Shown in pieces: positions 29,591 through 45,627 of a stretch of 64,000 nt of DNA. Source of the stretch: Pseudomonadales bacterium (lineage in GTDB: Bacteria > Pseudomonadota > Gammaproteobacteria > Pseudomonadales > Pseudohongiellaceae); NCBI GenBank assembly GCA_022825945.1, contig JAJDVS010000082.1, positions 10,470 through 74,469 of the forward strand, written 5' to 3'. The first letter of the stretch is position 1. Each line of letters starts with the position of its first letter. Made by a program: the position numbers and the translations under genes. Below the pieces are notes generated by a model that was given only the letters and a program-made list of their open reading frames with translations, ran no database searches and was not told the origin of the DNA.

Positions 29591-29718
29591 CCAGGAGCCT
29601 GCGCCACAGGAATTCGCGAAAGCGAAAATTCGCTATCGTCGCGCCCCTGGCCGGTCGATTGAGGCGAATATTGTTGGATATGCAACGAAATCGAGCGGCC
29701 GGGGGCGCAGGCTCCTAG
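29591..29718 (+). mobile_element. MITE-like non-autonomous element, short copy (128 bp)
   Basis: CCAGGAGCCTGCGCC...GGCGCAGGCTCCTAG imperfect terminal inverted repeats. Collinear with 45207-45373 with about 6 mismatches and one 39-bp internal deletion. No transposase ORF. Confidence 0.7.
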
Positions 29719-30564: not shown

Positions 30565-32586
30565 CTAACGATGGGTCCGATTGGCAAGCAGGGATTCCAC
30601 GAGCAGCAGGACCATGGCGAACAGCAGAATCCACCACCAGATGCGCTGCGGGCGTTCGAGTTCCTCCGCGAGTTCCGCCATCTGCACTTCCCGGGAACGA
30701 ACCACATCGGTATCGGGATTGATGATGGCGTCGGTGAGGGTCGCCACCGCCATTCTTTCCAGGTTTGACTCGGCGGCGTCGGCATTCACGGCGAAATTCT
30801 CATTGCCGCCGTCCACCTCGGCGCGGATGATGCCCGGCATGCTCGCTTCCACCAAAAAGTTCTCGCCGGCGAAGGTCATTGCATTGCCGTCGGGGCCTTG
30901 CACGCCGGCAACCAGTCCGGCGCCATTGATGTCCACGGAAAACCGATCCCCCACCTGATACGAACGCTGTTTCAGTTCCGGCTGCACCAGGTGGCGCAGG
31001 GTTTCATGGATGAAAGGCAGAAACAGGCCCTGAAGCGGCAGATTGTTCCATTCCAGATCCATGCTCGAAGCGAACAGCAGCACCCTGCCTTCGCCGAATT
31101 CCTGCTCCACCAGCGCCGGCATGGCGTTGTCGAACTGCATCAGCACCTCCGCGCCCGGATTGGCGGCAAGCCGCCAGTGATGCTGGAAACGCGCCGACCA
31201 GTCGGTATCCAGCGAGCGGAACACCGGATGCCGCCGATCGAAATCGGCGATGACCAGATAATCGCCGGCGCCGGTGAGTTCCGGGCTCGCCAGTTGCGCC
31301 GGGCTGATTTCGGCGAACTGTTCATTGAAGCGCTCCGGCTCCACCTGATCGCCGGGCGCAATGAGCAGGGCGCCGCCGTCGCGCACGTAGTCCGCCAGGG
31401 CATTCGTCTGGCCGACGCTGAGTTCGCCGACATTGAGCAGCACCGCCACGTCGTTCTGGCCCAGGGCCGCCGGGCTCAAATCCGCAGGCTCCAGCGCCTG
31501 CAGGCGAAAGGGCGATTCCCCGGAGCTGCTCACCGCCAGGGAGAACCAGTGTCCTTCGTCGTCGAACCACTGCCCGGAGGCCTCGCCATTGACCAGCAGA
31601 ATACGAATTCCCGGCAGCACATCCACGGTGAAATACCAGACGTTGTCGGCGGGAAAATTGTCGCCGGACAGTTCGATGCGGCCGATATGGCTGCCCTGTT
31701 GGGGAAAACTCGCGGCAAAGCTGACCACGCGCTCGGAGCGGTCATCGAGCGCCACCGACTGGCGGTCGATGAGCTGGTCATTGATCAGCAGGCTGACATC
31801 GGCGCGACTGGCGAACAGGGTCCCGGTGGAGCGGACCCGGGCAAGCACCTGCCGCCGCGGTTCGTCTTCGAGCAATTGCTCCGGCGAGCGCACGTCGGTA
31901 AGCGCCAGATTCACCGATTCGGGCCTGCCGGCGTCGATTCCGGTGAAGCGGACTCCCGGGGCGAGCTTCCAGTCTTCCTCCACATTGTCCATGCCCGCCT
32001 GCTGGTAGTCCGAAACCAGATACAGGGCGCGGTTTTCAAAGCGGGATGATTCGAGCAATTCATTGGCCAGACGCAGGGCCGGCATGAAGTCGGTGGCGCC
32101 ATGGCCCGGCTCAATCTCCCGCAGCAGCGCCCGGACGCTGTCGAGATCGGTATTGAATTCGCGCACGAGATCGACGCTTTCGTCAAAAGCGATCAGCGCC
32201 ACTTCGTCGCCGGCGTCAAGGGAATCGATCAGATCGAGGGCCTTGCCGCGGGCGGTTTCGAACACGTCCTCGTAGCGCATGCTCATGGACACATCGAGCA
32301 GCAGCACCGCCGACTCGGGGTCGGCGTCGAGCAACCGCGCCAGCGAAAGGTTGATCAGGGGGCGGGCGAAGGCGAATACCAGCAGGGCGATCAGGCCCGC
32401 GCGCAGGGCAAGCAGCAGCAATTGCCGCAAATGCTGGAACAGCACCAGCTTGCGCGGGGTTTTCTTGAGAAAGCGCACCGTGCCGAACCTCATCCTGGGC
32501 GGCTTTTCCCGGCGGATGAGGTGAATCGCCACCGGAACCAGCGCGGCAAGCAGGCCCAGCAGGAACAGCGGCGTGAGAAAGACCAT
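30565..32586 (-). CDS. BatA-type N-terminal double-transmembrane + VWA domain membrane protein
   Basis: MVFLTPLFLLGLLAALVPVAIHLIRREKPPRMRFGTVRFL (aerotolerance-regulator N-terminal type). VWA with MIDAS LLLDVSMSM. C-terminal TM IWWWILLFAMVLLLV. The start shares 1 nt with the DUF58 stop. Confidence 0.85.
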   Translation of the reverse strand: MVFLTPLFLLGLLAALVPVAIHLIRREKPPRMRFGTVRFLKKTPRKLVLFQHLRQLLLLALRAGLIALLVFAFARPLINLSLARLLDADPESAVLLLDVSMSMRYEDVFETARGKALDLIDSLDAGDEVALIAFDESVDLVREFNTDLDSVRALLREIEPGHGATDFMPALRLANELLESSRFENRALYLVSDYQQAGMDNVEEDWKLAPGVRFTGIDAGRPESVNLALTDVRSPEQLLEDEPRRQVLARVRSTGTLFASRADVSLLINDQLIDRQSVALDDRSERVVSFAASFPQQGSHIGRIELSGDNFPADNVWYFTVDVLPGIRILLVNGEASGQWFDDEGHWFSLAVSSSGESPFRLQALEPADLSPAALGQNDVAVLLNVGELSVGQTNALADYVRDGGALLIAPGDQVEPERFNEQFAEISPAQLASPELTGAGDYLVIADFDRRHPVFRSLDTDWSARFQHHWRLAANPGAEVLMQFDNAMPALVEQEFGEGRVLLFASSMDLEWNNLPLQGLFLPFIHETLRHLVQPELKQRSYQVGDRFSVDINGAGLVAGVQGPDGNAMTFAGENFLVEASMPGIIRAEVDGGNENFAVNADAAESNLERMAVATLTDAIINPDTDVVRSREVQMAELAEELERPQRIWWWILLFAMVLLLVESLLANRTHR

Positions 32587-33479
32587 CAGAAGCTCCGCGC
32601 CCGCCGCATCATGAACGCCGAAAGCGCCTGGTCAAGGGGCTGGGAAGTGTCCATCAGGCAATAGTCCACCCCGCTGCCCTGGCATTTCCTGCGGCAATAG
32701 TCGAGAAATTCCCGGACGTGTTGCAGGTAGGACTTGCGGATCGCCGCCGGCGAAGTAATGAAACTCTCGTCGTTCTCCATGTCGATGAACTCGGTGGCCT
32801 CGGTGAAGGGGAATTCGAGCTCGGCGTGGTCCATGATCTGGAATGCGATCACGTCGTGGCCCATGGCGCGCAGGTTCTGCAGGGTGCGAATCACGCGCTC
32901 CTCATCGTCGAGCATATCGGTAATGAGCACCACAAAGCTTTTCTTGTGGAGCGAAGTGGCCAGGTCGGTGAGCGGCTTGACCACATCGGTGCCGCCGCCC
33001 TGCTCCACTTTCGCCAGCGAACGCAGAATCCGCATCAGGTGCATTTGCCGGCATTTGGGTGGAATGTAATCGCGAATCTCTTCATCGAAAACGATCAGCC
33101 CCACGGCGTCGCGCTGGCGCATGATGAAGTAGGACAGCGCCGAAGCCAGGGTGACGCCATATTGCAGCTTGGTGAAATCGCCGGCGCCATAGGCCATGGA
33201 AGCGCTGCTGTCGAGCAGGATGACACAGCGCACATTGGTTTCGTCTTCGTATTGCCTGACGTGGAACTTGCCCGAGCGGGCGTAGAGCCGCCAGTCCACA
33301 TGGCGCATGTCGTCGCCGGGATAGTAGTGGCGGTAATCGTTGAATTCGACGCTGAAGCCCCGCTCCGGGCTCTTGTGCAGGCCCGACAGGAATCCCTCCA
33401 CCGCCACCCGGGCGCGCATCTCGAGATTGGAAAGCCCCGCGAGTACCGAGGGATCGAGAAAATTGAGGGATTCCGACAT
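32586..33479 (-). CDS. DUF58 family protein (VWA-like, MoxR partner)
   Basis: Family signature GFSVEFNDYRHYYPGDDMRHVDWRLYARSGKFHVRQYEDE, followed by ILLDSSASM. Confidence 0.88.
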   Translation of the reverse strand: MSESLNFLDPSVLAGLSNLEMRARVAVEGFLSGLHKSPERGFSVEFNDYRHYYPGDDMRHVDWRLYARSGKFHVRQYEDETNVRCVILLDSSASMAYGAGDFTKLQYGVTLASALSYFIMRQRDAVGLIVFDEEIRDYIPPKCRQMHLMRILRSLAKVEQGGGTDVVKPLTDLATSLHKKSFVVLITDMLDDEERVIRTLQNLRAMGHDVIAFQIMDHAELEFPFTEATEFIDMENDESFITSPAAIRKSYLQHVREFLDYCRRKCQGSGVDYCLMDTSQPLDQALSAFMMRRARSF

Positions 33480-33484
33480 CCGGG

Positions 33485-34552
33485 CTAGTCCTCGAGTTCC
33501 GCCGCCGGGGCGGGCACCGCCTCGAGCAGCCTGGTGATGACCTGGTCGGTGGTGACCCGTTCCGCCTCGGCGTGGAAGTTAAGCAGTATCCGGTGCCGCA
33601 GGATCGACGGCGCCAGGGCCCGCACGTCGCCATAGGAAACATTGAAGCGCCCGGAAAGCAGGGCCCGCACCTTGCCCGCGAGAATCAGGTTCTGGGAAGC
33701 GCGGATGCCGGCGCCCCAACTGATCCAGTCCTTGATGAACTGGGGCGAAGTGGGCGAATGGGGCCGGGAGGCATGCACCAGGCGCACCGCGTAGCGAATC
33801 ACGGCTTCCGCCGCGGGCACCTGCCGGGCGATACGCTGGAAATCGAGAATATCCTCGCCGCTGAGCGGGTGCGACAGGGGATTGTCATAGGTCTGGGTGG
33901 TGGTGCTCACCACGGTGACTTCGTCGGATTCCGACAGGTAATCGAGTTCAATCTTGAACATGAAGCGGTCGAGTTGGGCTTCCGGCAGGGGATAGGTGCC
34001 TTCGAGCTCGATGGGGTTCTGGGTCGCCAGCACGAAAAACGGCGCCGACATGGGATGGGTTCTTCCCGCGGCGGTCACCTGGCGCTCTTCCATGGCTTCC
34101 AGCAACGCCGACTGGGTTTTGGGCGGGGTCCGGTTGATTTCGTCGGCAAGCAGGATATTGGTGAAAATCGGCCCGGCGACAAACTTGAGGCTGCGCTGGC
34201 CGTCGACTTCCTCCACCACTTCCGAGCCCACCACGTCGGCGGGCATCAGGTCCGGCGTGAACTGGATGCGGCTGAACTTGACCTGGAGAATATCCGCCAC
34301 GGTCTTGATCAGCAGGGTCTTGGCAAGCCCCGGCACCCCGGTGACCAGGCAATGCCCGCCGGCGAACAGCGCGATGAGCAGTTCATCGACGATTTCATGC
34401 TGGCCGATGATGACCTTGCGGATTTCCTCCACGATCCGCTCCCTGCCTTCCTGCATGCGCCTGACGAGGCTCAGGTCATCCCGGTCCCGCACCACGGCCT
34501 CACCAATGCCCGCCGCCTCGTCCGCCGTTGCTGTCGCTTGTGCTTCTGACAT
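33485..34552 (-). CDS. MoxR family AAA+ ATPase
   Basis: Walker A GVPGLAKT, RIQFTPDLMPADVVG, Walker B LLADEINRTPPKTQSALLEAMEERQVT and the C-terminal lid region. Confidence 0.92.
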   Translation of the reverse strand: MSEAQATATADEAAGIGEAVVRDRDDLSLVRRMQEGRERIVEEIRKVIIGQHEIVDELLIALFAGGHCLVTGVPGLAKTLLIKTVADILQVKFSRIQFTPDLMPADVVGSEVVEEVDGQRSLKFVAGPIFTNILLADEINRTPPKTQSALLEAMEERQVTAAGRTHPMSAPFFVLATQNPIELEGTYPLPEAQLDRFMFKIELDYLSESDEVTVVSTTTQTYDNPLSHPLSGEDILDFQRIARQVPAAEAVIRYAVRLVHASRPHSPTSPQFIKDWISWGAGIRASQNLILAGKVRALLSGRFNVSYGDVRALAPSILRHRILLNFHAEAERVTTDQVITRLLEAVPAPAAELED

Positions 34553-34602
34553 GCCCTGTTTCCCGTTGCTTGTGGAAATCCGGAAATTTCCAGGTTGATG
34601 AC

Positions 34603-35433
34603 CTAGTGACTGAACGCGTAGATCAGGAAGTTTATCCCGATCTTGTACGCCTCGTTGGTGTAGCGGGTCGGATATTCCGCGTAAAAGGTGTGCTCCCAGC
34701 CGTCGCCGAGATCGGTATTGTAGTTCGCCAGCATCATGATGCGGCCATCGTCGTCGAGCACGGCATAGACTTCCGGCGGATAGCTCGGGTCATCGAGATT
34801 CATGTAGCCGCCGAAATCCCAGGTCACCATGCGTCCGGGCACCTGGGCCAGTTCGTCGATATCGAAAAAAATGTGGAAAATCTCGTGGCTGGTGTCGAGT
34901 TTGACGATTTCCCGGTCGGGGAAGATCTTGCCGATTTCCATGTACATGTCGTCGAGGTGGGGCTGGCCCCAGAAATCGTCCACCATGACGAATCCGCCCC
35001 GGAACATGAATTCCCGCAGGATTTCGATTTCCTCGGCGCTGAAATTCGGGCCGCTGTAGCTGGAGCCGATGGGCACGCGCTTCCAGTTCATGTAGAGAAA
35101 GATATGCTCGAAAATGCGCGGGTCGGTCAGTTGCATGAAGGTGTGGTTGCGGGGATTGGTGTCGATATTGGTGTAGCGCTGGACGCCGCGCAGGAAGTTC
35201 TCGTCGGAATCGGGATAGTCGGTGTCCCACCAGCCGCCCCGGCGGCGATAGGAAAAGCCGGTGCCGCCATGATTGGTGTATTGCCCCCGCACCCAGGTGA
35301 ATTCGGTGATGTCGTCGCCGTAGATGGCAAGATCCTCGTTGTCCTCAAACCGCGGTTGCTGGGCCTGGCTTGCGGCGCAAATCAGCAGCAGGCACAGACA
35401 TGCAGCGAGCAGCCCGGGGCGGCGGCGGGACAA
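34603..35433 (-). CDS. Secreted DUF4159 family protein
   Basis: TTG 35433 lies after GAGGA and gives LSRRRPGLLAACLCLLLICAASQAQ, a signal peptide. Family-typical FMFRGGFVMVDDFWG and YKIGINFLIYAFSH. The longer track ORF (to 35784) overlaps the upstream gene. Confidence 0.78.
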   Translation of the reverse strand: MSRRRPGLLAACLCLLLICAASQAQQPRFEDNEDLAIYGDDITEFTWVRGQYTNHGGTGFSYRRRGGWWDTDYPDSDENFLRGVQRYTNIDTNPRNHTFMQLTDPRIFEHIFLYMNWKRVPIGSSYSGPNFSAEEIEILREFMFRGGFVMVDDFWGQPHLDDMYMEIGKIFPDREIVKLDTSHEIFHIFFDIDELAQVPGRMVTWDFGGYMNLDDPSYPPEVYAVLDDDGRIMMLANYNTDLGDGWEHTFYAEYPTRYTNEAYKIGINFLIYAFSH

Positions 35434-35449
35434 TGCCGGGCGGGAATCC

Positions 35450-38167: not shown

Positions 38168-39195
38168 GGCGCAAGCTTATTGAATCTCGCGGTGGCGCGG
38201 GCCAGCTCCACCAGCAATTCCTCGAGCTGGCGCCAGTAGTCGGGTTCGAGGAATTCGGCCTTGCGGCCCCGCAGAATGAAAACCGAGCGTTCCAGTTGTT
38301 GCATGCGGGATTTCAGCGCCAGTGCTTCGCCGCCGAGATTGGCGGTTTCCGCCGCGGCGGAGTCGATATAGGCGATTTCCGCCAGGCGGCCGTCCGGGTC
38401 ATCGAGGCCCGGGCCGAGGCTGAACATGGCGTCGCCGTTATCGTCGAGCCCGGCGTGTTCCGAGGCGAGCCGGCCCTGGTCGGCGTACCATTGCTCGACA
38501 TTGGCCCGGGCGTAATTGAAGGCTTCCAGCAGGGACACCCGGTTGTTCTTGTCCAGGTCCCCGGCGCGGCCGTCGAGGGCTTCGATGAAGTAGCGCGAGA
38601 AAACCGGATCGTATTTTTCCGAAGCCGAGCGCGTGGCGGAAATCACCACCCTGCCCTCTCCCGAAAGAAAGGTGGAAAAACCGTAGCTCGCACTGGTGGT
38701 ATTGACGATGACCATGTCCTGCCGCGCGAAGGGTTCCAGCAATTCGCGGAACTCCGGGCCGGTGTAGTCCGGGCCGATGATATTGAACTTGGCTTCCCCG
38801 CCCTCGCCGGAGCCGTGACCGATGAGATAGACGGTAAGCTGGTCGCCGTCGCCCACCTGATCGCGCAATTCGCTGAATGCCGCGGCTATGCCGGCCCGGT
38901 CGCTGGTTCCGTCGAGCCGGTTGCCGGCATTGGGACCGGCCGCGTCCAGGTCGTGGAGCAGGGTGATGGAATCGGTGGAATAACCGTAGTCCCGGATGAG
39001 GATGTCGTGGAGCGAATAGGCCCATTGCCGGAATTGGGAGATACTGTCGGCGCCCACCGAGGGGCCGACGATAATCACCGCGTACTTGGCGGAATCCGGC
39101 GCTTCGAGGAAATAGTCGACTTCCATCGGAAGTTGCGCCCGGGCCGCGGAAGTCGCGAAAACCAGCAGTAGCAGGAGCGTTGGCAGCCGGTTCAT
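38164..39195 (-). CDS. Secreted caspase/legumain (peptidase C13)-fold protein with Ser at the catalytic Cys position
   Basis: ATG 39195 (ATGA overlap with the upstream stop) gives MNRLPTLLLLLVFATSAARAQ. YAVIIVGP..., TVYLIGHGSGEGG (His-Gly dyad) and MVIVNTTSASYGF align by eye to legumain MVFYIEACESGS. C-terminal coiled coil. Confidence 0.65.
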   Translation of the reverse strand: MNRLPTLLLLLVFATSAARAQLPMEVDYFLEAPDSAKYAVIIVGPSVGADSISQFRQWAYSLHDILIRDYGYSTDSITLLHDLDAAGPNAGNRLDGTSDRAGIAAAFSELRDQVGDGDQLTVYLIGHGSGEGGEAKFNIIGPDYTGPEFRELLEPFARQDMVIVNTTSASYGFSTFLSGEGRVVISATRSASEKYDPVFSRYFIEALDGRAGDLDKNNRVSLLEAFNYARANVEQWYADQGRLASEHAGLDDNGDAMFSLGPGLDDPDGRLAEIAYIDSAAAETANLGGEALALKSRMQQLERSVFILRGRKAEFLEPDYWRQLEELLVELARATARFNKLAP

Positions 39196-41492
39196 GACAA
39201 GCCCCGCAGCCGGCGCGTCATCCAGTCGATGCATAGCAGGCCCACGAGCAGGGCGAGTAGCCAGGGTTCGTCCCACAGGTCGATCTGCGTTTCCCGGGAA
39301 TAGGCGTTGGGGGTGAATTCGATGGCTTCGGGCAGTCCGCCCACCTCGTCGAGATCGAAATAGCCGCCGCCGGCGGCCTCCGCCATGCGGCCAAGGAGTC
39401 CCCGGTCCATGCCGGCATTGTTGAATTCGCGCAGGGAAGGCGTCACCACGATGGCGGCCTGCTTTTCGGCGCCTTCCTCGCCGACAGCGCTGGTCACGTC
39501 CACGAGCAGGTCGAAAACCCCTTCCTGGTCGGCAATGAAGGAAGAGCGGTAAATGCCGTCTTCCTCGATATTCCATTCCATGGGGGTGTCGGTGATTTCG
39601 TCCAGCGGGTTGGTGGTCTGGATCCACAGGCTGGCGTCATTGTCGGGCTCGTACTGTTCGTCGAGCACCCGGGCGGTGACCTGCACCTCGTCGCCGATAT
39701 TGTAGAACTCGCGGTCGAACTCCAGGGTCACCCGGTCCGGCGCCGAAACCGCGAGCCAGCGCAGCATCTGCCGCCACAGGGTTTCGTGTGAGGTATCTTC
39801 CGAGTCCATCATCATCTGCCAGCGCCAGGTGCTCGCGGTGGTGAGCGACAGGACCCGACCGCTGCCATAGCGCTGGGTAACGATCACCGGCAGGGCCTGG
39901 TTCCGGTATTGCAGCGCCGGATGTTCCAGCAGCACTTCGGCCCCGGGCTTGATGCGGCCGGTGACGTACACTCCCTGCAACTGTGGCAATTGCGACCAGG
40001 CGAATCGGTTTTCGGCGTCTTCCCCGGCGAGCCGGAGCAGCGGTGAAAACTCGCCGTTGCGGGTCAGGCGCGGAACGAACAGTTCGCCGCTGGGGTGGTC
40101 GCCCCGACGTATGCCGCCGCGCAGGGGATTGGGCAGGAAATTCTCCTCCACCAGGGTCACCGGCAGTATGTCCACCAGCGGAGTGCCGATGAATGCCTCA
40201 TCCACCATGCCGCTTTTGAGCAGGCCGCCGCCACGCTCGGCGACAAAGCCCTCGATCATCCGCAACTGGTCGTCGTTGAAGAACTCCTTTTCGATATCGC
40301 CGAGGATGATCGCCTCGTATTCGTACAGCGTCTCCCGGCTGCCGGGAAAGCCTTCGGCAAGCTCGGTGGGCGATTCGATGCCCTGGCGATAGAACTTGCC
40401 GGGGCCGGTTTGCAGATAGGTCGCCAGCCGCAGGGATTCGTCATCCTCCACCGCCCGGCGGATGAACTTGTATTCGTTGCGCGGATGACCTTCGAGATAG
40501 AGGATGTCCAGGGGCGGTTTGTCGGTATTGTCCACCAGAAAGCGGTAGCTGTTGTTGCGGGTGATGATCTCGCCGGGCTGAACGCCCACCCGCAATTCGT
40601 AAACGATGCGCTCGGCGCGTTCCGGGGTGACCTCAAGACTGAAGCGCCGGGATACGCCCGCGGCGCCGAGGCTGACCACCTCGCTGCTTACCGCGGCGTC
40701 GCCGTCGAACACCGCGAGTTCCACTTCCTGGCCGGCGAATCCCTGGTGGCGCAGGGCCGCGGTCACGGTGAAGACCGAACCTTCGAGCACGGTGCGGGCG
40801 GCGCTGACGTCCACAATGCCGATATCGAGTGGAATGTCTTCCTGACCCACGCCCACGGTGAAAACGGGAATCCGGCGGTTGCCGAATTGCCGGGCGGCGA
40901 TGATCGGGTCGCTATTGCTGTTGTCGGCGCCATCGCTGACGAGCACCACGCCGCCGAGGGGAAGCCCGTCAAGCTGACCGGCCACGGCTTCCAGGGCCTG
41001 GCCGATGGCGGAACCGGCGCCGGATTCGCCGAGCGCGCCGTCGCTTTCGCCCGGCGCGACCCGGCGGATGGTCTGGTCGAAGGCGAAGCTGCGAAGCTGG
41101 AAGGATTCGGCGAGTTCATCCATCACCGGGCCGGCGAGAAAGGCGTCCGCCGCAGCCGCTGCCCGGCTGCGACCGTCCATGTCGGCGATGGTCATGCTTT
41201 GGGAATTGTCGAGCAGCACGGCGAGATAGGTATCCTGGGGCGAGACCTGGCGCGTGTTCACCACCGGCCGCAGCAGGCAGAACAGGATCAGGACCAGCGC
41301 CAGGGAGCGCAGCCCGATGAACCAGGCTTTCCAGACCGGCGACAGCGGCCGCGTGGTGCGGTAGTAGCTCAGCCAGACCGCGGCGACAACGAGCAGGGAA
41401 ATGAGCCCGAACAGCCACGGGCTGACGCCATGGGCAAAGCTCAGATTGCCTTGTTGCAGCGCGGACAGCAGCGTGGGCTGGGTGACTTGCAT
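39192..41492 (-). CDS. Membrane-anchored VWA domain protein with amidotransferase-like C-terminal domain
   Basis: Two N-terminal TMs. VWA with MIDAS VLLDNSQSM and VVLVSDGADN. The ThuA/GATase1-like region is suggested by ILYLEGHPRNEYKFIRRAV and YEAIILGDIEKEFF...GFVAERGGGLL. C-terminal TM WLLALLVGLLCIDWM. Confidence 0.78.
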   Translation of the reverse strand: MQVTQPTLLSALQQGNLSFAHGVSPWLFGLISLLVVAAVWLSYYRTTRPLSPVWKAWFIGLRSLALVLILFCLLRPVVNTRQVSPQDTYLAVLLDNSQSMTIADMDGRSRAAAAADAFLAGPVMDELAESFQLRSFAFDQTIRRVAPGESDGALGESGAGSAIGQALEAVAGQLDGLPLGGVVLVSDGADNSNSDPIIAARQFGNRRIPVFTVGVGQEDIPLDIGIVDVSAARTVLEGSVFTVTAALRHQGFAGQEVELAVFDGDAAVSSEVVSLGAAGVSRRFSLEVTPERAERIVYELRVGVQPGEIITRNNSYRFLVDNTDKPPLDILYLEGHPRNEYKFIRRAVEDDESLRLATYLQTGPGKFYRQGIESPTELAEGFPGSRETLYEYEAIILGDIEKEFFNDDQLRMIEGFVAERGGGLLKSGMVDEAFIGTPLVDILPVTLVEENFLPNPLRGGIRRGDHPSGELFVPRLTRNGEFSPLLRLAGEDAENRFAWSQLPQLQGVYVTGRIKPGAEVLLEHPALQYRNQALPVIVTQRYGSGRVLSLTTASTWRWQMMMDSEDTSHETLWRQMLRWLAVSAPDRVTLEFDREFYNIGDEVQVTARVLDEQYEPDNDASLWIQTTNPLDEITDTPMEWNIEEDGIYRSSFIADQEGVFDLLVDVTSAVGEEGAEKQAAIVVTPSLREFNNAGMDRGLLGRMAEAAGGGYFDLDEVGGLPEAIEFTPNAYSRETQIDLWDEPWLLALLVGLLCIDWMTRRLRGLS

Positions 41493-41494
41493 GC

Positions 41495-44400
41495 TCAGCG
41501 CGCCGAATCGCCCGAACCCTGCTGTTCCGACAGCACGCGGTAGTACTCCTGTACCAGGCCGCGGTATTCGTCGGGGATGTCCTCCTCGATGGTGGCGTAC
41601 AGGCGGTTGTTGATTTCCTCGAGTTCGGCCTGGGCGCGCAGGGCGCCTTCGAGTTCGATGACCGGCTCGAGCAGGGCGCGGAACAACTCGGGCTGGTTGA
41701 GAAAGTCCTCGATGTCCTGGCGGGTGATTTGCCGGGTCACCGAACGCGCATCGCCCCAGGGCAGATTGCCGCCATCGGTGCGGATTTCGCCGCCGGGGCC
41801 ATGGCGGTCGGTGCCGGACTGGCGCAAATCGCCGTTCCGGTTGCCGCCCCGGGCCTGCCCGCCAGCGCCTTGCTGGGCCTGCTGCCGCATCTGCTGGCTG
41901 ATTTGCCGGGCGAGCTGGCGGGATTGCCGCAACTGCTCGCGCAATTCACCCACGCCGGGCATGCCGGGGCCGGGCCGGTTGCCGTTTTCATTGAGCGCCT
42001 GAACCTGGCTTTCGAGTTCCTGCAACCGCTCGCGCAACTGCCGGGCGTCCGCCGCCGCCTGCTGCAGGGGGTTGCCTGAAGCCTGGGCCGGGTCGAGCGC
42101 CGCGAGGCTTTGGGCCAGGTCCTCGATCTGGTCTTCCACGGTCTGCTCGATATCCGCGGCGAGATTGACCATGCCATTGCGCAGGATGCGGTTGCTGGTC
42201 TGCATTTCTTCCTGGATGGGGCGCAACTCCCGGGTCGCCTGCTGGGCCTGGGAAAGCAGCCGCTGATCCTCGTTGCCGCCCCGGGCGATGACCGCCCGCA
42301 GCATGTCCTCGATTTCCTCGATTTCCTGTTGCCGGCGCTGCTGGACCTCGATCAGCTCGTCGAGATCAGCGTCATTGCGCACCGATTGCCGGGTCTGGCC
42401 GAGACCCATTTCCCGGCTGGCCTCTTCCATGGCTTCCCGCAGCTCGCGCTGTTGCTCAAGCAATTGCTGGCCGCGCTGACCGAGATTGCGCGCCAGTTGA
42501 TTCACCGAACGATCCGCCTGCTCGCCGAGCTGCCGCTGCTGGCGGCGCAGGTTTTCCAAAGCCTTCTGGCTTCTGGCGGCGGCGATGGAGGGCGATTCCG
42601 CCGCGGCTGCGTCCCGCATCTGCCGGGCCGCCTGCCGCAGCGCCTCGGTCTGCCGGGCGCCGCCGCTTTCGCCCTGGGAACTCTGGCCCCGGGAGGCGCT
42701 GGCGCTTTGCTGGCCCCGGGACATCTGCCGGGCGAGTTGCTGGACTTCCTGGCTCAGTTGCTCCTGCTGGCGCATCAGCCTTTCGAGTTCCCTGCGCTTT
42801 TGCTCTTCGGTCAATTGTTCCGCGCGACGGGCGAGATTGCGCTGGGCCCGGGTCAGGCCCTCCTGGCGCCGGGCGAGTTCCTCAAGCTGGTTGGCTTCTT
42901 CCTGCTGCCGGGCGCTCTGGCCCCGGCTGTTGGGATTTTCATAGCGGTTTTCCAACTGGCCAAGCTCCATTTCGAACAGTTCGCGCAGGTCTTCGCGTTC
43001 CTGCCGGGCTGCTGCGCCGCCACCGCCGCCTCCCTGCCGCATGCTGATTTCGGTGCGGTTGATATTGGCTTCGGCCTTGAGGATGTATTGCAGCGCAGCC
43101 TGTTCCGGTTGCAGGGCGCTGGTGACCTGGAGCAGGTCCAGCTCCGCCGCCGCGAGATTCATCTGATCTATGGCCAGGGCGAGGTTTTCCACCGCCTGGT
43201 CGTAGGAGTCGTCGGAAAAATTGAGCCTTTCCGACAGCCGGTCAATCGACATGCGCGCCTGGCGGGTGGCTTCGAGCTGGGATTCGGCGATGATTTCGGC
43301 GTCGGCGGCGAACTCTTCGGGCGCCGCCCGGGACTCGCGGTTCTTGAGCTTCCAGGTTGCCGCGATGATGTCTTTCTGGATATTGACCAGGGCGCTGCTG
43401 TCTCCGCCCTGACCGCCGCCACCTCCGCCGCCGCCCTGGTTGCGGCGGAATTCCTGGTCGGTGGGAATGACCTGGAGAAAGTAGATATCGGAAATCACCT
43501 CGCTGGGACCGTCGAGGCCGTTATTGTCCGCGAGGGTGAGATAGTAGCTGACGAAATCGCCGGGCTCCACGGCCAGGTCCTCGAGATAGATCAACTGCTC
43601 GCCGGATACGCTGCGCACTTGCTCTTCGGGGAGGAAGTCCACCTCCGCCTCGTCCTGCCCCACCACACTGTAATGGAGATTGAAACGGGTCAGGCCGTAG
43701 TCGTCGCTGGCGTCTACTTCAAGGATGACTTCCTCCAGGGGCATGACATCCTGATCCCTGCCCGGGCGGCGCAGGGCGAGCTCCGGAGGTTGGTCCACGA
43801 TGGCCCTGATGTAGTAGTCGAGCGGATCGCTGCTGGCAAGGCCGGAATGATCCACCGCCCGCACCCGGTACACGCCGTCCTGGCTGAGCGTGAAGGAGGC
43901 GGCGCCGGTATTGCCGTCGATGTTGAGCGGCAGGTCGGGCATGTCGGCGCCTTCCGCGGCGGGGTCGAATTCGAGCCGGGCCTCGGCCACGGCCTTGTTG
44001 AAGCCCACGGTGATTTCCACCGCGCTGCCCACCGGGGCGATCAGGTCGCCGCCGTCTTCTTCGAGCAGGTCTTCCATACCGGTGTATTCGGGATAATCGA
44101 AGGCCACATCGATTTGTTCCACCCGGGGCAGGTCAAATACGCTGATGCGGTACTGGCGGGAGTTTTGGGTATCGCCCTGATCGAATGTCACATAATAGGT
44201 GGTGTCTTCCATCAGGCTCGGGATGTAGTAACTGAACGCGGCGCCGTCGCTGCCGCCGCCGTCCCGCCTCATGGCCACATCGCGCCAGTTGACGTTGTCG
44301 TCCTGCAGGCGCAGGGTCACAGCCTCCGGGGCGGCGCCGCTGACCCGGGCCGCAACGGTAAGGCCGTCGCCGCGCTGCAATTCCATATCGCCCGGTTCGA

Positions 44401-45022
44401 TGAGAATCTCGATCACCGGCGGCGGCTCGCCCTGCATCACGATTTCAGCGGCTTCGAACGGCCAAAGCAGGCGACTGAAGGAATCCCTGAGGGTTCCCGA
44501 TGTCAGCAGGACCACCGAGACCGCGAGCACGGCGCCCGCCGACAGCCCGAAACCGAGCCAGGAGCGACCCACCGGGGTAATCGATTCCATTTCCCGCTGC
44601 TGGCGCAGCATTTGCCGCTCGGCGTCCTGCCACAGGCGGGCAATGAACTGCCGGGACACGCCCCGGCGGCCAAAACGCAGTTCATCCTCGCTGAATTCCA
44701 GGGAAGTCAACAGGCGCTGTTCCAGATCGGGGATATGGTCTTCCACATAATGCGCCAGACACTGGTGGGTCGCATGGCGGCGGCGCAGCACGCCGAACAG
44801 CCGCCAGCCCAGTGCGCCGATGGTTCCCAGCAGCGCCGCGAGCATTGCCAGGCTCGCCAGGGGCGCTGGCTGCAACTCGCTGAACAACAGGGTAAAGCTG
44901 AATATCAGCAGGGCGCTGACGGCGCAAAACAGGCTGAGTTGGCGCAATGCAAAAAAGGTGCTGCGGCGGCGGCGGAGGTCTTCGAGAGTGGCGTGCAAGC
45001 TGTCGAACGTGGGATGCGTCAT
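41495..45022 (-). CDS. 1175-aa membrane protein with Ig-like beta region, poly-Gly tracts and ~550-aa Q/R/E-rich coiled coil (DUF4175-like)
   Basis: ATG 45022 lies after GGAG. TMs FALRQLSLFCAVSALLIFSFTLLF, LASLAMLAALLGTIGALGW and WLGFGLSAGAVLAVSVVLL. Also HYVEDHIPDLEQRLLTSLEF, the GGGGGGGGQGG tract, and C-terminal EDIPDEYRGLVQEYYRVLSEQ. Confidence 0.78.
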   Translation of the reverse strand: MTHPTFDSLHATLEDLRRRRSTFFALRQLSLFCAVSALLIFSFTLLFSELQPAPLASLAMLAALLGTIGALGWRLFGVLRRRHATHQCLAHYVEDHIPDLEQRLLTSLEFSEDELRFGRRGVSRQFIARLWQDAERQMLRQQREMESITPVGRSWLGFGLSAGAVLAVSVVLLTSGTLRDSFSRLLWPFEAAEIVMQGEPPPVIEILIEPGDMELQRGDGLTVAARVSGAAPEAVTLRLQDDNVNWRDVAMRRDGGGSDGAAFSYYIPSLMEDTTYYVTFDQGDTQNSRQYRISVFDLPRVEQIDVAFDYPEYTGMEDLLEEDGGDLIAPVGSAVEITVGFNKAVAEARLEFDPAAEGADMPDLPLNIDGNTGAASFTLSQDGVYRVRAVDHSGLASSDPLDYYIRAIVDQPPELALRRPGRDQDVMPLEEVILEVDASDDYGLTRFNLHYSVVGQDEAEVDFLPEEQVRSVSGEQLIYLEDLAVEPGDFVSYYLTLADNNGLDGPSEVISDIYFLQVIPTDQEFRRNQGGGGGGGGQGGDSSALVNIQKDIIAATWKLKNRESRAAPEEFAADAEIIAESQLEATRQARMSIDRLSERLNFSDDSYDQAVENLALAIDQMNLAAAELDLLQVTSALQPEQAALQYILKAEANINRTEISMRQGGGGGGAAARQEREDLRELFEMELGQLENRYENPNSRGQSARQQEEANQLEELARRQEGLTRAQRNLARRAEQLTEEQKRRELERLMRQQEQLSQEVQQLARQMSRGQQSASASRGQSSQGESGGARQTEALRQAARQMRDAAAAESPSIAAARSQKALENLRRQQRQLGEQADRSVNQLARNLGQRGQQLLEQQRELREAMEEASREMGLGQTRQSVRNDADLDELIEVQQRRQQEIEEIEDMLRAVIARGGNEDQRLLSQAQQATRELRPIQEEMQTSNRILRNGMVNLAADIEQTVEDQIEDLAQSLAALDPAQASGNPLQQAAADARQLRERLQELESQVQALNENGNRPGPGMPGVGELREQLRQSRQLARQISQQMRQQAQQGAGGQARGGNRNGDLRQSGTDRHGPGGEIRTDGGNLPWGDARSVTRQITRQDIEDFLNQPELFRALLEPVIELEGALRAQAELEEINNRLYATIEEDIPDEYRGLVQEYYRVLSEQQGSGDSAR

Positions 45023-45097
45023 GTTGACTCCGCCATTTGCGTTTGCCCCGGCGCCGGCATCCGGGCGGGGATTTCCGGCGGCGTTCGGCCCAAGTCA

Positions 45098-45127
45098 AAT
45101 ATCCCACCAACGCGCCAGTGATTGCAA
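45098..45127 (-). promoter_or_regulatory. Candidate sigma70 promoter of the eight-gene operon
   Basis: On the minus strand, TTGCAA (45127-45122), an 18-bp spacer, then GATATT (45103-45098). It lies ~75 nt upstream of the ATG at 45022. Confidence 0.3.
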
Positions 45128-45206
45128 GCGCGGTTGGGGGCCGGCTCGCCCCGGCCGCGGTATCGGTCAGCATGGCCACGGGCGCGGATTTGGCTCATGG
45201 CGCGGC

Positions 45207-45373
45207 CCAGGAGCCTGCGCCGTAGGAATTCGCGAAAGCGAAAATTCGCTATCGCCGCGCCCCTGGCTGATCGATTGAGGCGAATATTGGTGGATATGCA
45301 ACGAAATCGAGCGGCCGGGGGCGTGGATGAGAGCGCATTTGCAGCCGTGAATTCCTACGGCGCAGGCTCCTAG
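45207..45373 (+). mobile_element. MITE-like non-autonomous element, full copy (167 bp)
   Basis: Terminal inverted repeats of ~25 bp: CCAGGAGCCTGCGCCGTAGGAATTC ... GAATTCCTACGGCGCAGGCTCCTAG. Internal hairpin GAATTCGCGAAAGCGAAAATTC. No coding capacity for a transposase. Confidence 0.75.
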
Positions 45374-45416
45374 GTATTCTCTGAAAAACTCCATCCGTGG
45401 AGTTTTTCATTATCGC
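45370..45416 (-). repeat. 47-bp hairpin unit, exact inverted copy of 17604-17650
   Basis: CTAGGTATTCTCTGAAAAACTCCATCCGTGGAGTTTTTCATTATCGC is the exact reverse complement of 17604-17650. It shares the CTAG with the MITE end. Confidence 0.8.
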
Positions 45417-45419
45417 TTT

Positions 45420-45503
45420 CGGCGTCTTGTCGACGTGACAGCAACTGTCCTCCCGGAGGGTGCGGAAGCTCTGGATGCCGATGGGTGGCTGGCGGCGCTG
45501 CAT
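45420..45503 (-). pseudogene. Remnant (first ~28 codons) of an AAA-ATPase-like / PD-(D/E)XK family gene
   Basis: MQRRQPPIGIQSFRTLREDSCCHVDKTP matches the conserved N-terminus of that family (PIGIQ-F--LRE----YVDKT). The reading frame then runs into repeat DNA. About 88% DNA identity to 58171-58254 by eye. Confidence 0.6.
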
Positions 45504-45566
45504 GACGGAGTCGGGTTTGGCAGATTCGGGTTCCAGGAATCATGTATGCTGAACCCGCACAGGCGT

Positions 45567-45595
45567 TTGCAACTTATGCATAATGATATTACATT
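45567..45595 (+). promoter_or_regulatory. Candidate sigma70 promoter for the MFS transporter gene
   Basis: TTGCAA (45567-45572), a 17-bp spacer, then TACATT (45590-45595). It lies ~33 nt upstream of ATG 45628 in an AT-rich patch. Confidence 0.4.
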
Positions 45596-45627
45596 AGGTC
45601 TAACTTGTCGTTGCCGGGAAAATCTCC

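What the first reader, a model, noticed from the sequence alone, without database searches (positions are those of the whole stretch)
30565..45022. Eight-gene, translationally coupled MoxR / DUF58 / VWA envelope operon with two protease-fold proteins and a giant coiled-coil membrane protein
All eight genes lie on the minus strand with overlaps of 1-4 nt or gaps of 50 nt or less. The junctions are 41492/41495, 39192-39195 (ATGA), 38164-38167 (ATGA), 35433/35450, 34552/34603, 33479/33485, and one shared nt at 32586. This indicates one transcription unit.

The core resembles the Bacteroides aerotolerance (Bat) type module, whose biochemical role is still undefined as far as I know. It consists of:
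- a MoxR AAA+ ATPase (GVPGLAKT, LLADEINR);
- a DUF58 protein;
- a BatA-type double-TM VWA protein (MIDAS DVSMS).

Five further envelope proteins are attached to that core:
- a 1175-aa three-TM protein with a beta-rich ectodomain, poly-Gly tracts and a ~550-aa Q/R/E coiled coil (DUF4175-like);
- a second TM-anchored VWA protein (MIDAS DNSQS) with an amidotransferase-like domain;
- a secreted legumain/caspase-fold protein;
- a secreted 905-aa TPR protein carrying a HEFSH gluzincin core;
- a secreted DUF4159 protein.

One AAA+ chaperone, three VWA-type modules and two protease folds, all membrane-anchored or secreted, suggest an ATP-driven envelope assembly or processing machine rather than a metabolic pathway. 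I know of no experimentally defined function for this gene combination.
Basis: partly seen in the sequence, partly recalled or inferred. Interest (0 to 1): 0.8.

Follow-up and report, generated by a model that had tools for sequence, protein, structure and literature searches.

The report
Conserved eight-gene MoxR envelope operon
This is a real eight-gene operon of a marine Pseudohongiella bacterium that couples a cytoplasmic MoxR ATPase to six membrane-anchored or periplasmic proteins; the same gene set recurs in other bacterial phyla, and I found no paper that tests what it does.

Summary
Eight minus-strand genes (30565-45022) are separated by -4 to +50 nt.

- MoxR (AAA_3), DUF58, BatA_N+VWA and DUF4159 score well above threshold.
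- The TPR protein carries Peptidase_MA_2 with an invariant HExxH...E.
- The two-TM VWA/GATase1-like protein is borderline in the window but clear in orthologues.
- The giant protein has 3 TM segments, Ig-like domains and a helical region. Its DUF4175 match is only partial.

The protein with no Pfam hit (G3) does have a legumain/metacaspase fold. The catalytic His is kept, but the Cys position is Ser, and there is an EF-hand-like Ca loop. Its family has about 2100 clusters at 50% identity.

The set is not a one-off:
- It has the same order in all of the 80 Pseudohongiellaceae loci whose contigs are long enough.
- Gilvimarinus has the same order.
- Cultured Gemmatirosa (Gemmatimonadota) and several MAGs carry the set, with the giant gene moved to the end.

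MoxR and DUF58 are cytoplasmic. The other six are membrane-anchored with periplasmic domains, or secreted.

Best reading: an extended, uncharacterised variant of the MoxR/DUF58/BatA-type envelope module. It is not a classical Bat operon, not a defence system and not a thiol-redox system. The mechanism is inferred, not shown.

The parts
41495..45022 (-). G1, 1175 aa. Three TM segments (29-47, 53-71, 156-174) with an 84-aa cytoplasmic loop. Periplasmic tandem Ig/FnIII-like beta-sandwich region (about 175-520), poly-Gly linkers (530-537, 664-669), then about 600 aa of Q/R/E-rich, helix-prone sequence. Partial DUF4175 match.
   Evidence: ORF and start. Hydropathy, composition and poly-Gly. Pfam DUF4175 37 bits, residues 302-505 only. 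AF2 of residues 175-560, pLDDT 85, all-beta. Foldseek hits to titin Ig/FnIII and complement MG domains. Orthologues at 29-42% identity in L083-L087.
39192..41492 (-). G2, 766 aa. N-terminal two-TM hairpin, periplasmic VWA domain (MIDAS DNSQS 95-99), GATase1-like module, weak MG2/Ig-like module, C-terminal TM helix with a basic tail.
   Evidence: Pfam VWA 19.6 and GATase1_like 26.7 bits, both borderline, and MG2 at E 0.0066. Orthologues hit VWA_2 and GATase1_like. MIDAS conserved in 6 orthologues. Topology. Weak similarity to G8 in the GATase-like part, E 1e-4.
38164..39195 (-). G3, 343 aa, with a signal peptide. Clan CD (legumain/metacaspase-like) fold that keeps the catalytic His127 but has Ser168 at the Cys position; Ser170 is invariant. 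EF-hand-like loop D213-x-D215-K-N-N-R-V-S221-x-x-E224 and a DDNGD motif. C-terminal amphipathic helices. No Cys anywhere.
   Evidence: No Pfam or NCBIfam hit. Profile against PDB: metacaspase-4 at E 9e-4 and 1.4e-8 with the diverse profile, aligned through the active site. AF2 pLDDT 61. Foldseek: ranks 1-45 are all clan CD peptidases. 16 of 34 relatives hit PF01650, and 1 hits EF-hand_5. Column counts. Family size: 2121 clusters at 50% identity.
35450..38167 (-). G4, 905 aa, with a signal peptide. TPR repeats flank a Peptidase_MA_2 gluzincin domain (H523-E-F-S-H527 ... E544 within PRWLSEG). It is the only component with an intact classical catalytic site.
   Evidence: Pfam Peptidase_MA_2 53.3 bits (threshold 32.4) plus many TPR families. 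H523, E524, H527, P539, R540, W541, S543, E544 and G545 are invariant in 6 orthologues at 29-48% identity.
34603..35433 (-). G5, 276 aa (TTG start; GTG at 35463 is possible), with a signal peptide. DUF4159, a GATase1-like clan fold. The mature part has no Cys.
   Evidence: Pfam DUF4159 124 bits. Alternative starts. Cys positions. Pfam places DUF4159 in the glutamine amidotransferase clan by structural similarity (PMC4702930). Weak PDB match 4i66 at E 0.052.
33485..34552 (-). G6, 355 aa. Cytoplasmic MoxR-type AAA+ ATPase with Walker A GVPGLAKT and Walker B LLADEINR.
   Evidence: Pfam AAA_3 210 bits and AAA_lid_2 48 bits. No TM segment or signal peptide apart from the Walker A false positive. 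It is the most conserved gene of the set, 80-98% identical across 80 loci.
32586..33479 (-). G7, 297 aa. Cytoplasmic DUF58 protein (VWA-like, MIDAS DSSAS 90-94).
   Evidence: Pfam DUF58 172 bits and VWA_2 45 bits. DxSxS conserved in orthologues. No TM segment or signal peptide.
30565..32586 (-). G8, 673 aa. BatA_N double-TM hairpin whose 34-aa loop holds 11 K/R (cytoplasmic). Periplasmic VWA (MIDAS DVSMS 98-102), ThuA/GATase1-like module, C-terminal TM helix.
   Evidence: Pfam BatA 60.8 and VWA_2 58.6 bits, with weak GATase1_like, ThuA and DUF4350. TIGR02226 65 bits. Topology counts. MIDAS and loop motif conserved. The homologous BB0173 has a periplasmic VWA by experiment (PMC5700661).
29715..30416 (-). 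Possible lineage-specific ninth gene (233 aa, N-terminal hydrophobic segment, weak TPR_12), 148 nt downstream of G8.
   Evidence: Pfam TPR_12 23.8 bits, below threshold. A homologue at 34-91% identity lies downstream on the same strand in most Pseudohongiellaceae loci, but not in Gilvimarinus or the more distant loci. A promoter-like site lies at 30452-30424.
45023..45627 (.). Divergent intergenic region upstream of G1, the presumed promoter region. It contains a ~167-bp MITE-like element (29-nt inverted repeats at 45206-45234 and 45346-45374).
   Evidence: Sequence. Inverted repeat. Four copies of the terminal motif in the window against 0 expected. Promoter-like site at 45611-45583.

Best explanation
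The locus is a conserved, multi-phylum operon. It extends the MoxR(AAA_3)/DUF58/BatA-VWA core of 'Bat-like' envelope modules with five further proteins.

Shown:
- The gene set, its tight spacing and its conservation.
- The domain content of each protein.
- Conserved MIDAS motifs in three VWA-type proteins.
- An intact HExxH...E zinc site in the TPR protein (G4).
- A Cys-less legumain/metacaspase-like protein (G3) that keeps His and carries an EF-hand-like loop.

Inferred from sequence (hydropathy, positive-inside counts):
- MoxR and DUF58 are cytoplasmic.
- G8, G2 and G1 are inner-membrane proteins with large periplasmic parts.
- G3, G4 and G5 are periplasmic or secreted.

Inferred mechanism:
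1. The cytoplasmic MoxR hexamer, recruited by the VWA-like DUF58 adaptor, does ATP-driven work on the conserved basic cytoplasmic loops of the double-TM proteins G8 and G2, and perhaps on the 84-aa loop of G1.
2. This controls the assembly or conformation of a periplasmic scaffold.
3. In that scaffold, metal-loaded MIDAS sites of the VWA domains grip acidic ligands of partner proteins.
4. The Ig-like stalk and long helical region of G1 act as a spacer or tether across the periplasm.
5. The TPR-flanked zinc peptidase G4 matures or clears a component or client.
6. G3 serves as a Ca-dependent substrate-binding subunit or an atypical Ser/His hydrolase.

The expected cellular role is maintenance of envelope integrity under stress, not metabolism.
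For: Structure and spacing of the eight genes.

Domains.

Conservation:
- Identical order in all of 80 Pseudohongiellaceae loci where the contig allows.
- Same order in Gilvimarinus.
- Same set, with G1 last, in Gemmatirosa kalamazoonensis and in MAG loci L084, L088, L089, L090.
- L085 and L086 differ. L085 has the set but its TPR protein shows no listed Peptidase_MA_2 hit. L086 has DUF4159 only upstream of G2.
- L081 has seven families before its contig ends.

Catalytic and ligand motifs conserved in orthologues at 28-48% identity.

Topology. The homologous BatA-type protein BB0173 was shown by experiment to expose its VWA domain to the periplasm (PMC5700661).

Envelope link from relatives:
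- RL3499-RL3502 mutants of Rhizobium leguminosarum have envelope and morphology defects (title and summary as cited in PMC5700661 and PMC5118466).
- RL3499 and RL3500 are growth-impaired on TY medium in Tn-seq.
- The P. aeruginosa arc2 cluster, with MoxR and VWA proteins, protects against interbacterial antagonism (bioRxiv 10.1101/2021.08.22.457286).
- In Rhodobacter sphaeroides a table in the CenR binding-motif section of the CenKR paper (the two-component system that regulates cell division and envelope biosynthesis) lists a TIGR02302 family gene and a MoxR family gene. That TIGR02302 corresponds to DUF4175 is my recollection (PMC9275681).

That MoxR ATPases work with a VWA adaptor is established knowledge of the family (Snider and Houry 2006, as cited).
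Against: - No experiment exists on this gene set.
- No physical interaction, transcript map or phenotype is available for any member.
- How a cytoplasmic ATPase would act on periplasmic domains is unknown for any Bat-like system.
- Deleting all bat genes in Leptospira biflexa gave no growth, morphology or oxidative-stress phenotype (PMC3557215), so phenotypes of relatives are inconsistent.
- The link to RL3499-RL3502 rests on shared families recalled from memory. That paper and those sequences were not on hand.
- G3 may be catalytically dead.
- The G3 model is of modest confidence (pLDDT 61).
- Signal peptides and topology were judged by hydropathy and charge, not with a dedicated predictor.
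Confidence: 0.55

Rival explanations
1. It is a classical Bacteroides-type aerotolerance (Bat) operon. It would supply or export reducing power to the periplasm and protect against oxidative stress.
For: It shares MoxR, DUF58, a BatA_N/VWA protein, a second VWA membrane protein and TPR repeats with Bat operons. Bat operons of Riemerella and others are linked to oxidative and heat stress (PMC11834572).
Against: No protein hits any BatD or SH3 family in the Pfam scan. That these domains define BatD and BatE is taken from PMC5700661. The periplasmic parts of G1, G2, G3, G5 and G8 contain no cysteine, so thiol-based redox chemistry is unlikely. The locus carries DUF4159, DUF4175-like, C13-like and gluzincin proteins; the domains that PMC5700661 lists for Bat operons (VWFA, Bat, SH3, TPR, DUF58, MoxR) include none of these. 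The redox role of Bat proteins is itself unproven, and it was not supported in Leptospira.
Confidence: 0.1
2. It is a conflict or anti-phage system of the MoxR-vWA type. A caspase-like effector would be unleashed by the ATPase on infection.
For: There is a weak bpMoxR Pfam hit (43.7 bits), and a caspase-fold protein and VWA proteins are present. MoxR-vWA systems with caspase effectors are described in PMC7159879 (listed).
Against: None of the nine proteins hits PADLOC. AAA_3 scores 210 bits against 44 for bpMoxR. No beta-propeller partner is present. The caspase-like protein is secreted and lacks the catalytic Cys. The genes are strongly conserved in fixed order across a whole family and across phyla, unlike variable defence islands.
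Confidence: 0.04
3. It is a dedicated maturation system in the manner of NorQD, CoxDE or CbbQO. MoxR with VWA adaptors would insert a metal cofactor into, or reactivate, a specific membrane or periplasmic enzyme encoded elsewhere.
For: This is the best-documented activity of MoxR-VWA pairs (summary and references; PMC3893208 abstract). Three conserved MIDAS motifs are present.
Against: No candidate client enzyme is encoded in the operon or conserved next to it; the flanks differ between lineages. Six of the eight proteins are extracytoplasmic structural or protease-like modules, which is not the pattern of known maturation pairs.
Confidence: 0.12
4. The eight genes are two or more independent units that are merely adjacent: a MoxR-DUF58-BatA triad, plus a G2-G3-G4-G5 periplasmic set, plus a mobile giant gene.
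For: The G5/G6 spacer is the widest junction (50 nt), and in close relatives it carries a ~160-bp MITE-like insertion. G1 lies first here but last in Gemmatimonadota and several MAGs. L091 has MoxR-DUF58-BatA-DUF4175-G2-G3 with no adjacent TPR peptidase. L082 has a G3-like gene outside any such operon.
Against: The families co-occur in 10 of 11 distant contexts sampled, and in all of the 80 close ones whose contigs are long enough. Overlapping stop/start codons sit at three junctions. Gene-order permutation with retained co-occurrence argues for a functional link.
Confidence: 0.12

Closest known systems
Bacteroides aerotolerance (BatI) operon and its spirochaete, Francisella and Riemerella relatives
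   Same: MoxR (AAA_3) ATPase, DUF58, a VWA protein with the BatA N-terminal double-TM domain, a second membrane VWA protein, and TPR repeats. The VWA domain faces the periplasm (BB0173). The biochemical role is undefined.
   Different: There is no BatD and no BatE-type SH3 domain. The TPR protein carries a gluzincin peptidase domain. The VWA proteins are twice as long, with GATase1/ThuA-like modules and C-terminal anchors. The locus also has DUF4159, a 1175-aa DUF4175-like protein and a Cys-less C13-like protein.
RL3499-RL3502 operon of Rhizobium leguminosarum (Vanderlinde et al. 2011, J Bacteriol 193:2684)
   Same: A broadly conserved MoxR/DUF58 operon with large membrane proteins. Mutation causes envelope-integrity and morphology defects (as cited). 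From my memory, its membrane proteins carry BatA_N, DUF4159 and GATase1-like domains; this was not checked here.
   Different: It has four genes against eight. From memory, it has no C13-like, TPR-gluzincin or adjacent DUF4175 gene.
Arc2 (PA4317-PA4323) of Pseudomonas aeruginosa
   Same: An uncharacterised gene cluster with a MoxR-like ATPase and a VWA protein, conserved in Gammaproteobacteria, that contributes to survival of envelope-directed attack by competitors.
   Different: The gene content beyond MoxR and VWA was not compared here. No sequence was available.
Peptidase family C13 (legumain, GPI transamidase subunit) and C14 (metacaspases), clan CD
   Same: G3 has the same alpha/beta fold, and the catalytic His sits in a G-H-G motif at the equivalent strand end. 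16 of 34 relatives hit PF01650.
   Different: The nucleophile Cys is replaced by Ser in 27 of 34 relatives (Ala, Pro or Asn in the rest). The mature proteins are mostly Cys-free. An EF-hand-like loop and a C-terminal helical tail are added.
MoxR-VWA maturation pairs (RavA-ViaA, NorQ-NorD, CbbQ-CbbO)
   Same: An AAA+ MoxR ATPase encoded next to a MIDAS-bearing VWA adaptor.
   Different: Those pairs are cytoplasmic, have two components and have an identified client enzyme. Here the VWA-like adaptor is DUF58, two further VWA domains are periplasmic, and no client is evident.

Membership tests
MoxR AAA+ ATPase (Pfam AAA_3, MRP-type) | AAA_3 domain above threshold, with Walker A, Walker B and the AAA lid | tested here: met
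   AAA_3 209.9 bits (threshold 27) and AAA_lid_2 48.1 bits. GVPGLAKT and LLADEINR are in the sequence.
DUF58 | PF01882 above threshold, with a VWA-like DxSxS | tested here: met
   171.8 bits (threshold 23.4). DSSAS at 90-94, conserved in orthologues.
BatA-type VWA membrane protein | N-terminal double-TM domain (PF07584 / TIGR02226) followed by a VWA domain with MIDAS | tested here: met
   G8: BatA 60.8 bits, TIGR02226 65.3 bits, VWA_2 58.6 bits, DVSMS.
Classical Bat operon (BatA-BatE) | BatD oxygen-tolerance protein present | tested here: not met
   No protein of the locus or its flanks hits a BatD family in Pfam.
Classical Bat operon (BatA-BatE) | BatE-type TPR plus SH3 protein | tested here: not met
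   No SH3 hit. The TPR protein carries Peptidase_MA_2 instead.
Clan CD peptidases (C13 legumain / C14 metacaspase) | Caspase-hemoglobinase alpha/beta fold | tested here: met
   Foldseek ranks 1-45 are all clan CD peptidases (E from 2e-4), though the model has pLDDT 61. Profile against PDB: metacaspase-4 at E 1.4e-8. 16 of 34 relatives hit PF01650.
Clan CD peptidases (C13 legumain / C14 metacaspase) | Catalytic His-Cys dyad | tested here: not met
   The His is kept (33 of 34). The Cys position is Ser168 (27 of 34 Ser, none Cys). G3 has no Cys at all.
Clan CD peptidases (C13 legumain / C14 metacaspase) | Pfam PF01650 or PF00656 hit for the window protein itself | tested here: not met
   G3 has no family at E up to 0.01.
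Gluzincin, Peptidase_MA_2 (PF13485) | HExxH plus a downstream Glu zinc ligand, and a profile score above threshold | tested here: met
   53.3 bits (threshold 32.4). H523, E524, H527 and E544 are invariant in six orthologues. Activity was not tested.
DUF4159 (PF13709) | Profile score above threshold over the full profile | tested here: met
   124.4 bits, profile positions 9-202 of 202.
DUF4175 (PF13779 / TIGR02302) | Full-length match to the family profile | tested here: inconclusive
   37 bits is above the threshold of 27.3, but only profile positions 184-383 of 825 match. There is no NCBIfam TIGR02302 hit. Orthologues show DUF4175 from unmarked to faint.
Class I glutamine amidotransferase | Catalytic Cys-His-Glu triad | tested here: not met
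   There are only fold-level, near-threshold hits (GATase1_like 26.7 and 23 bits, ThuA 23.3 bits). The periplasmic parts of G2, G5 and G8 have no Cys.
MoxR-vWA-beta-propeller ternary conflict systems / known defence systems | A beta-propeller partner, a bpMoxR-type ATPase, or a hit to defence-system models | tested here: not met
   No propeller is present. bpMoxR scores 43.7 bits against 210 for AAA_3. PADLOC gives 0 hits for 9 proteins.
RL3499-RL3502-type alphaproteobacterial operon | Orthology of the membrane proteins to RL3501 and RL3502 | not testable with these tools
   The paper is not held. Chromosomal Rhizobium sequences are not in the collections offered.

The most novel reading that the evidence does not exclude
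The G3 family is an active Ser/His (or otherwise non-thiol) offshoot of the legumain/metacaspase fold. Together with the TPR-gluzincin G4, it would form a Ca-dependent periplasmic processing or transpeptidation complex, loosely like the C13 subunit plus metallopeptidase-fold subunit of GPI transamidase. The cytoplasmic MoxR/DUF58 pair would gate its activity across the inner membrane through the BatA-type double-TM proteins. That would give MoxR/Bat-like operons their first biochemical function.
Probability: 0.1. Interest if true: 0.8.

Novelty: new variant of a known kind. Interest (0 to 1): 0.55.

Why it matters
MoxR/DUF58/BatA-type operons are found in many bacterial lineages, including pathogens, and have been tied to stress tolerance, envelope integrity, virulence and survival of interbacterial attack. 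No biochemical function is known for them after more than 25 years.

This eight-gene version is more informative than the classical Bat operon for four reasons:
- It keeps the same partners together across at least two phyla.
- It includes one clearly intact enzyme, a TPR-flanked zinc peptidase.
- It includes a large uncharacterised family (about 2100 clusters at 50% identity) with a caspase/legumain fold but no cysteine.
- It occurs in cultured hosts (Gemmatirosa kalamazoonensis KBS708, Gilvimarinus), so the question can be tested.

The fixed partner list also gives concrete targets for complex prediction and pull-downs.

Tried and rejected
- NCBIfam gave nothing specific for G1, G2, G3 or G5.
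- Single-sequence phmmer of G3 against PDB was not significant (E 0.68). Only the profiles reached significance.
- The first G3 model was of modest quality (pLDDT 61). I ran no further search on improving it, because three independent lines already agreed on the fold.
- The genome-contig scan used very narrow peptide patterns and returned almost only Pseudohongiellaceae and unclassified gammaproteobacterial MAGs. Breadth had to be recovered another way: the representatives search, then a profile search, then contig look-ups.
- The listing of cluster members gave no organism names for ten distant G3 relatives, so the phylum of L082, L084, L085 and L088-L091 is unknown.
- Vanderlinde et al. 2011 could not be read.
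- The search with G1's ectodomain returned only 45 proteins, many of them partial.
- Rfam and tRNA scans of the window found nothing.
- The promoter/terminator scan gave no more sites than shuffled sequence, and no terminator inside the operon on the coding strand except one consensus match inside G4.
- The defence-system reading was rejected: PADLOC had 0 hits and synteny is conserved.
- The redox reading was rejected: the periplasmic domains are Cys-free and there is no BatD.
- The amidotransferase-enzyme reading was rejected: there is no nucleophile.
- No coiled-coil or signal-peptide predictor was available.

Full report
**1. Observation**

The window is from a Pseudohongiella species (Pseudomonadales). 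Locus L001 from an 'uncultured Pseudohongiella sp.' chromosome is 96-98% identical at the protein level across the region.

The junctions are +2, -4 (ATGA), -4 (ATGA), +16, +50, +5 and -1 nt. G5 requires a TTG start at 35433, with GAGGA about 14 nt upstream; a GTG at 35463 is the alternative.

The flanks mark the ends of the unit:
- Upstream lies a divergent MFS transporter gene (45628-46887, +).
- Downstream, after 148 nt, lies a 233-aa gene with a weak TPR match (29715-30416, -).
- Beyond that are unrelated CNNM/CBS and RND-efflux genes.

**2. What each gene encodes**

| Gene | Coordinates | Size | Content |
|---|---|---|---|
| G6 | 33485-34552 | 355 aa | MoxR ATPase; AAA_3 210 bits, AAA_lid_2 |
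| G7 | 32586-33479 | 297 aa | DUF58, 172 bits, with DSSAS |
| G8 | 30565-32586 | 673 aa | BatA N-terminal double-TM domain (61 bits; TIGR02226 65 bits), VWA_2 (59 bits, DVSMS), weak GATase1_like/ThuA/DUF4350 module, C-terminal TM |
| G5 | 34603-35433 | 276 aa | DUF4159, 124 bits, behind a signal peptide |
| G4 | 35450-38167 | 905 aa | Signal peptide; TPR blocks either side of Peptidase_MA_2 (53 bits, threshold 32) |
| G2 | 39192-41492 | 766 aa | Same layout as G8: two N-terminal TMs, VWA with DNSQS, GATase1-like module, C-terminal TM |
| G1 | 41495-45022 | 1175 aa | Three TMs, partial DUF4175 match, all-beta ectodomain, two poly-Gly tracts, ~600 aa Q/R/E-rich helix-prone region |
| G3 | 38164-39195 | 343 aa | Signal peptide; no Pfam or NCBIfam hit |

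Further detail on four of these:

- *G4.* H523, E524, H527 and the PRW[LF]SEG glutamate E544 are invariant in six orthologues at 29-48% identity.
- *G2.* Its Pfam scores are borderline in the window (VWA 19.6, GATase1_like 26.7). Orthologues hit both families clearly, and the MIDAS motif is conserved.
- *G1.* The DUF4175 match scores 37 bits but covers only 200 of 825 profile positions. AlphaFold2 models residues 175-560 at pLDDT 85. Foldseek matches that model to tandem Ig/FnIII and complement MG domains. No coiled-coil predictor was run.
- *G3, fold.* A 20-sequence profile matches Arabidopsis metacaspase-4 at E 9e-4, and a 34-sequence diverse profile matches it at E 1.4e-8. The AlphaFold2 model is only moderate (pLDDT 61), yet its first 45 Foldseek PDB hits are all clan CD peptidases: metacaspases, legumain, caspase-6, MALT1, GPI transamidase and C11. 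Sixteen of 34 diverse relatives hit PF01650 Peptidase_C13 (best 1.7e-9), and NCBI names one relative 'C13 family peptidase'.
- *G3, active site.* The HMMER alignment runs through the active site. The G-H-G histidine (His127, 33 of 34) aligns with the catalytic His. The position of Cys139 aligns with Ser168, which is Ser in 27 of 34 relatives and never Cys. Ser170 is invariant. G3 has no cysteine at all.
- *G3, Ca site.* The family carries an invariant EF-hand-like loop (D213-x-D215-K-D/N-G/N-R-V-S221-x-x-E224) and a DDNGD motif. One relative hits EF-hand_5.

**3. Topology (inferred)**

- MoxR and DUF58 have no TM segment or signal peptide.
- G8's 34-residue loop between TM1 and TM2 has 11 K/R. 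The segments after TM2 of G8 and G2 are acidic, and both C-terminal tails are basic. G1's N-terminus and its 84-aa TM2-TM3 loop are basic.
- By the positive-inside rule, the VWA/GATase-like domains of G8 and G2, and residues 175-1175 of G1, face the periplasm.
- This agrees with the experimentally determined topology of the BatA-type protein BB0173 (PMC5700661).
- The periplasmic parts of G1, G2, G3, G5 and G8 contain no Cys. This argues against thiol redox chemistry, amidotransferase chemistry and cysteine-protease chemistry.

**4. How widespread the set is**

*Close relatives.* tblastn of the eight proteins against 80 Pseudohongiellaceae and unclassified gammaproteobacterial loci finds all eight in the same order wherever the contig is long enough. 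MoxR is the most conserved (80-98%), and G1 and G8 the least (54-97%).

*Size of the G3 family.* It has 2121 representative clusters at 50% identity with E up to 1e-3, and 1351 with E up to 1e-10.

*Contexts of eleven distant G3 relatives (33-50% identity).*

| Locus | Source | Arrangement |
|---|---|---|
| L083 | Gilvimarinus | All eight in the window's order |
| L087 | Gemmatirosa kalamazoonensis KBS708, megaplasmid 1 | All eight, G1 last |
| L084, L088, L089, L090 | MAGs | All eight families, giant gene after the BatA gene; an extra DUF4159 gene sits upstream of G2 in L084, L089 and L090 (opposite strand in L089) |
| L085 | MAG | As above, but the TPR protein shows no listed Peptidase_MA_2 hit |
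| L086 | MAG | All eight families, giant gene last, but DUF4159 lies only upstream of G2, not before moxR |
| L081 | Gemmatimonadetes MAG | Seven families, then the contig ends |
| L091 | MAG | MoxR-DUF58-BatA-DUF4175-G2-G3, no adjacent TPR peptidase |
| L082 | MAG | G3-like gene outside such an operon |

Relatives of G1's ectodomain also carry Acidobacteriota, Verrucomicrobiae and Gemmatimonadetes names.

The combination is therefore a stable, ancient module, not a curiosity of this genome.

**5. Literature**

Five full-text searches found no paper on this gene set, nor on DUF4159, PF07090 or PF13779 in this context. Relatives give scattered phenotypes:

- Rhizobium leguminosarum RL3499-RL3502 mutants have envelope and morphology defects. 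I know this only as cited; the paper itself is not held.
- Riemerella moxR and batA mutants show altered stress tolerance and virulence.
- Leptospira bat deletions have no phenotype.
- The P. aeruginosa arc2 cluster (MoxR plus VWA) protects against interbacterial antagonism.
- A table in the CenR binding-motif section of the R. sphaeroides CenKR paper lists a TIGR02302 family gene and a MoxR family gene. That TIGR02302 is the NCBIfam counterpart of DUF4175 is my recollection.
- An N-terminal DUF4175 domain occurs in the Acinetobacter division protein AdvA.

**6. Explanation**

Shown: the anatomy, the conservation and the motif conservation.

Inferred: a two-compartment machine.
- The cytoplasmic MoxR hexamer with its VWA-like DUF58 adaptor acts on the conserved basic cytoplasmic loops of the double-TM proteins G8 and G2, and possibly on G1's loop.
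- Their periplasmic MIDAS-VWA and GATase-like domains, secreted DUF4159, and the Ig-stalk plus helical region of G1 form a scaffold.
- The TPR-gluzincin G4 is the one predicted active enzyme.
- G3 is a Ca-binding pseudo-protease or an atypical Ser/His hydrolase.
- The likely role is envelope maintenance.

I give 0.55 to this overall reading. The specific mechanical steps individually deserve less.

Rivals:
- Classical Bat redox function: 0.1. No BatD or SH3, and the periplasmic domains are Cys-free.
- Cofactor-insertion chaperone for an unlinked client: 0.12. No conserved client.
- Merely adjacent units: 0.12. MITE insertions occur at the G5/moxR junction in relatives and G1's position varies, but co-occurrence is retained.
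- Defence system: 0.04. PADLOC has 0 hits and synteny is core-like.

**7. Novelty and score**

This is a new, richer variant of a known kind (MoxR/DUF58/BatA-type envelope operons) and includes an undescribed Cys-less C13-like family. Specialists would not be astonished by another MoxR-VWA operon. However, the fixed eight-partner set, present in cultured hosts, makes the old question of what Bat-like systems do more tractable. Interest: 0.55.

Noticed in passing
window 45206-45374; also 17492-17650, 29594-29615, 59159-59180: A ~160-bp MITE-like element with 29-nt terminal inverted repeats (93% complementary, 111-nt spacer). Its terminal motif GGAGCCTGCGCCGTAGGAATTC occurs 4 times in the window against 0 expected. 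In close relatives, copies of this element or of the related 17492-17650 element sit inside the operon in the G5/moxR spacer (L001 14592-14758; L003 14594-14750; L004 12635-12792) and after G8 in L004. The window has the empty 50-nt site.
   Followed up: partly
window ~45143-59230: About 14 kb upstream of the operon is absent in the closely related genomes L001 and L004, where the DNA upstream of G1 continues with window 59237-61219. This stretch holds the MFS transporter, two polysaccharide deacetylases, an isochorismatase, a CoA-transferase III and more. L003 has it. Both junctions coincide with copies of the MITE-like repeat, which suggests an indel or recombination between repeats.
   Followed up: partly
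window 29715-30416 (-): A 233-aa protein with an N-terminal hydrophobic segment and a weak TPR_12 match lies 148 nt downstream of G8. A promoter-like site lies at 30452-30424. A homologue (34-91% identity) lies downstream on the same strand in most Pseudohongiellaceae loci but not in Gilvimarinus or more distant lineages. It may be a lineage-specific accessory.
   Followed up: partly
L081 6755-7561 and 13579-14361; L084 6798-7724 and 13782-14639; L090 6825-7706 and 13752-14603: Gemmatimonadetes-type versions of the operon carry two DUF4159 genes, one before the G2 homologue and one before moxR. The window's single DUF4159 (G5) sits at the second position but is more similar to the first paralogue (34-40% against 27% identity).
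   Followed up: no
window 23700-28027 (+) and 27996-29255 (+): An RND efflux pair (HlyD-family adaptor, then AcrB-family pump at 481 bits) is followed by a CNNM/CBS-domain protein. These are ordinary neighbours with no conserved linkage to the operon.
   Followed up: no
L082 (ENA ERZ21830300 contig, 4.9 Mb), 10001-11248: A 415-aa G3-like protein stands outside a MoxR operon. A DUF4159 gene and a G2-like gene lie about 7.6 kb away, and a second partial G3-like match lies at 6615-7001. This is a dispersed or decayed version of the module.
   Followed up: no
whole window: There are no tRNA genes and no Rfam family at gathering threshold in 64 kb.
   Followed up: yes
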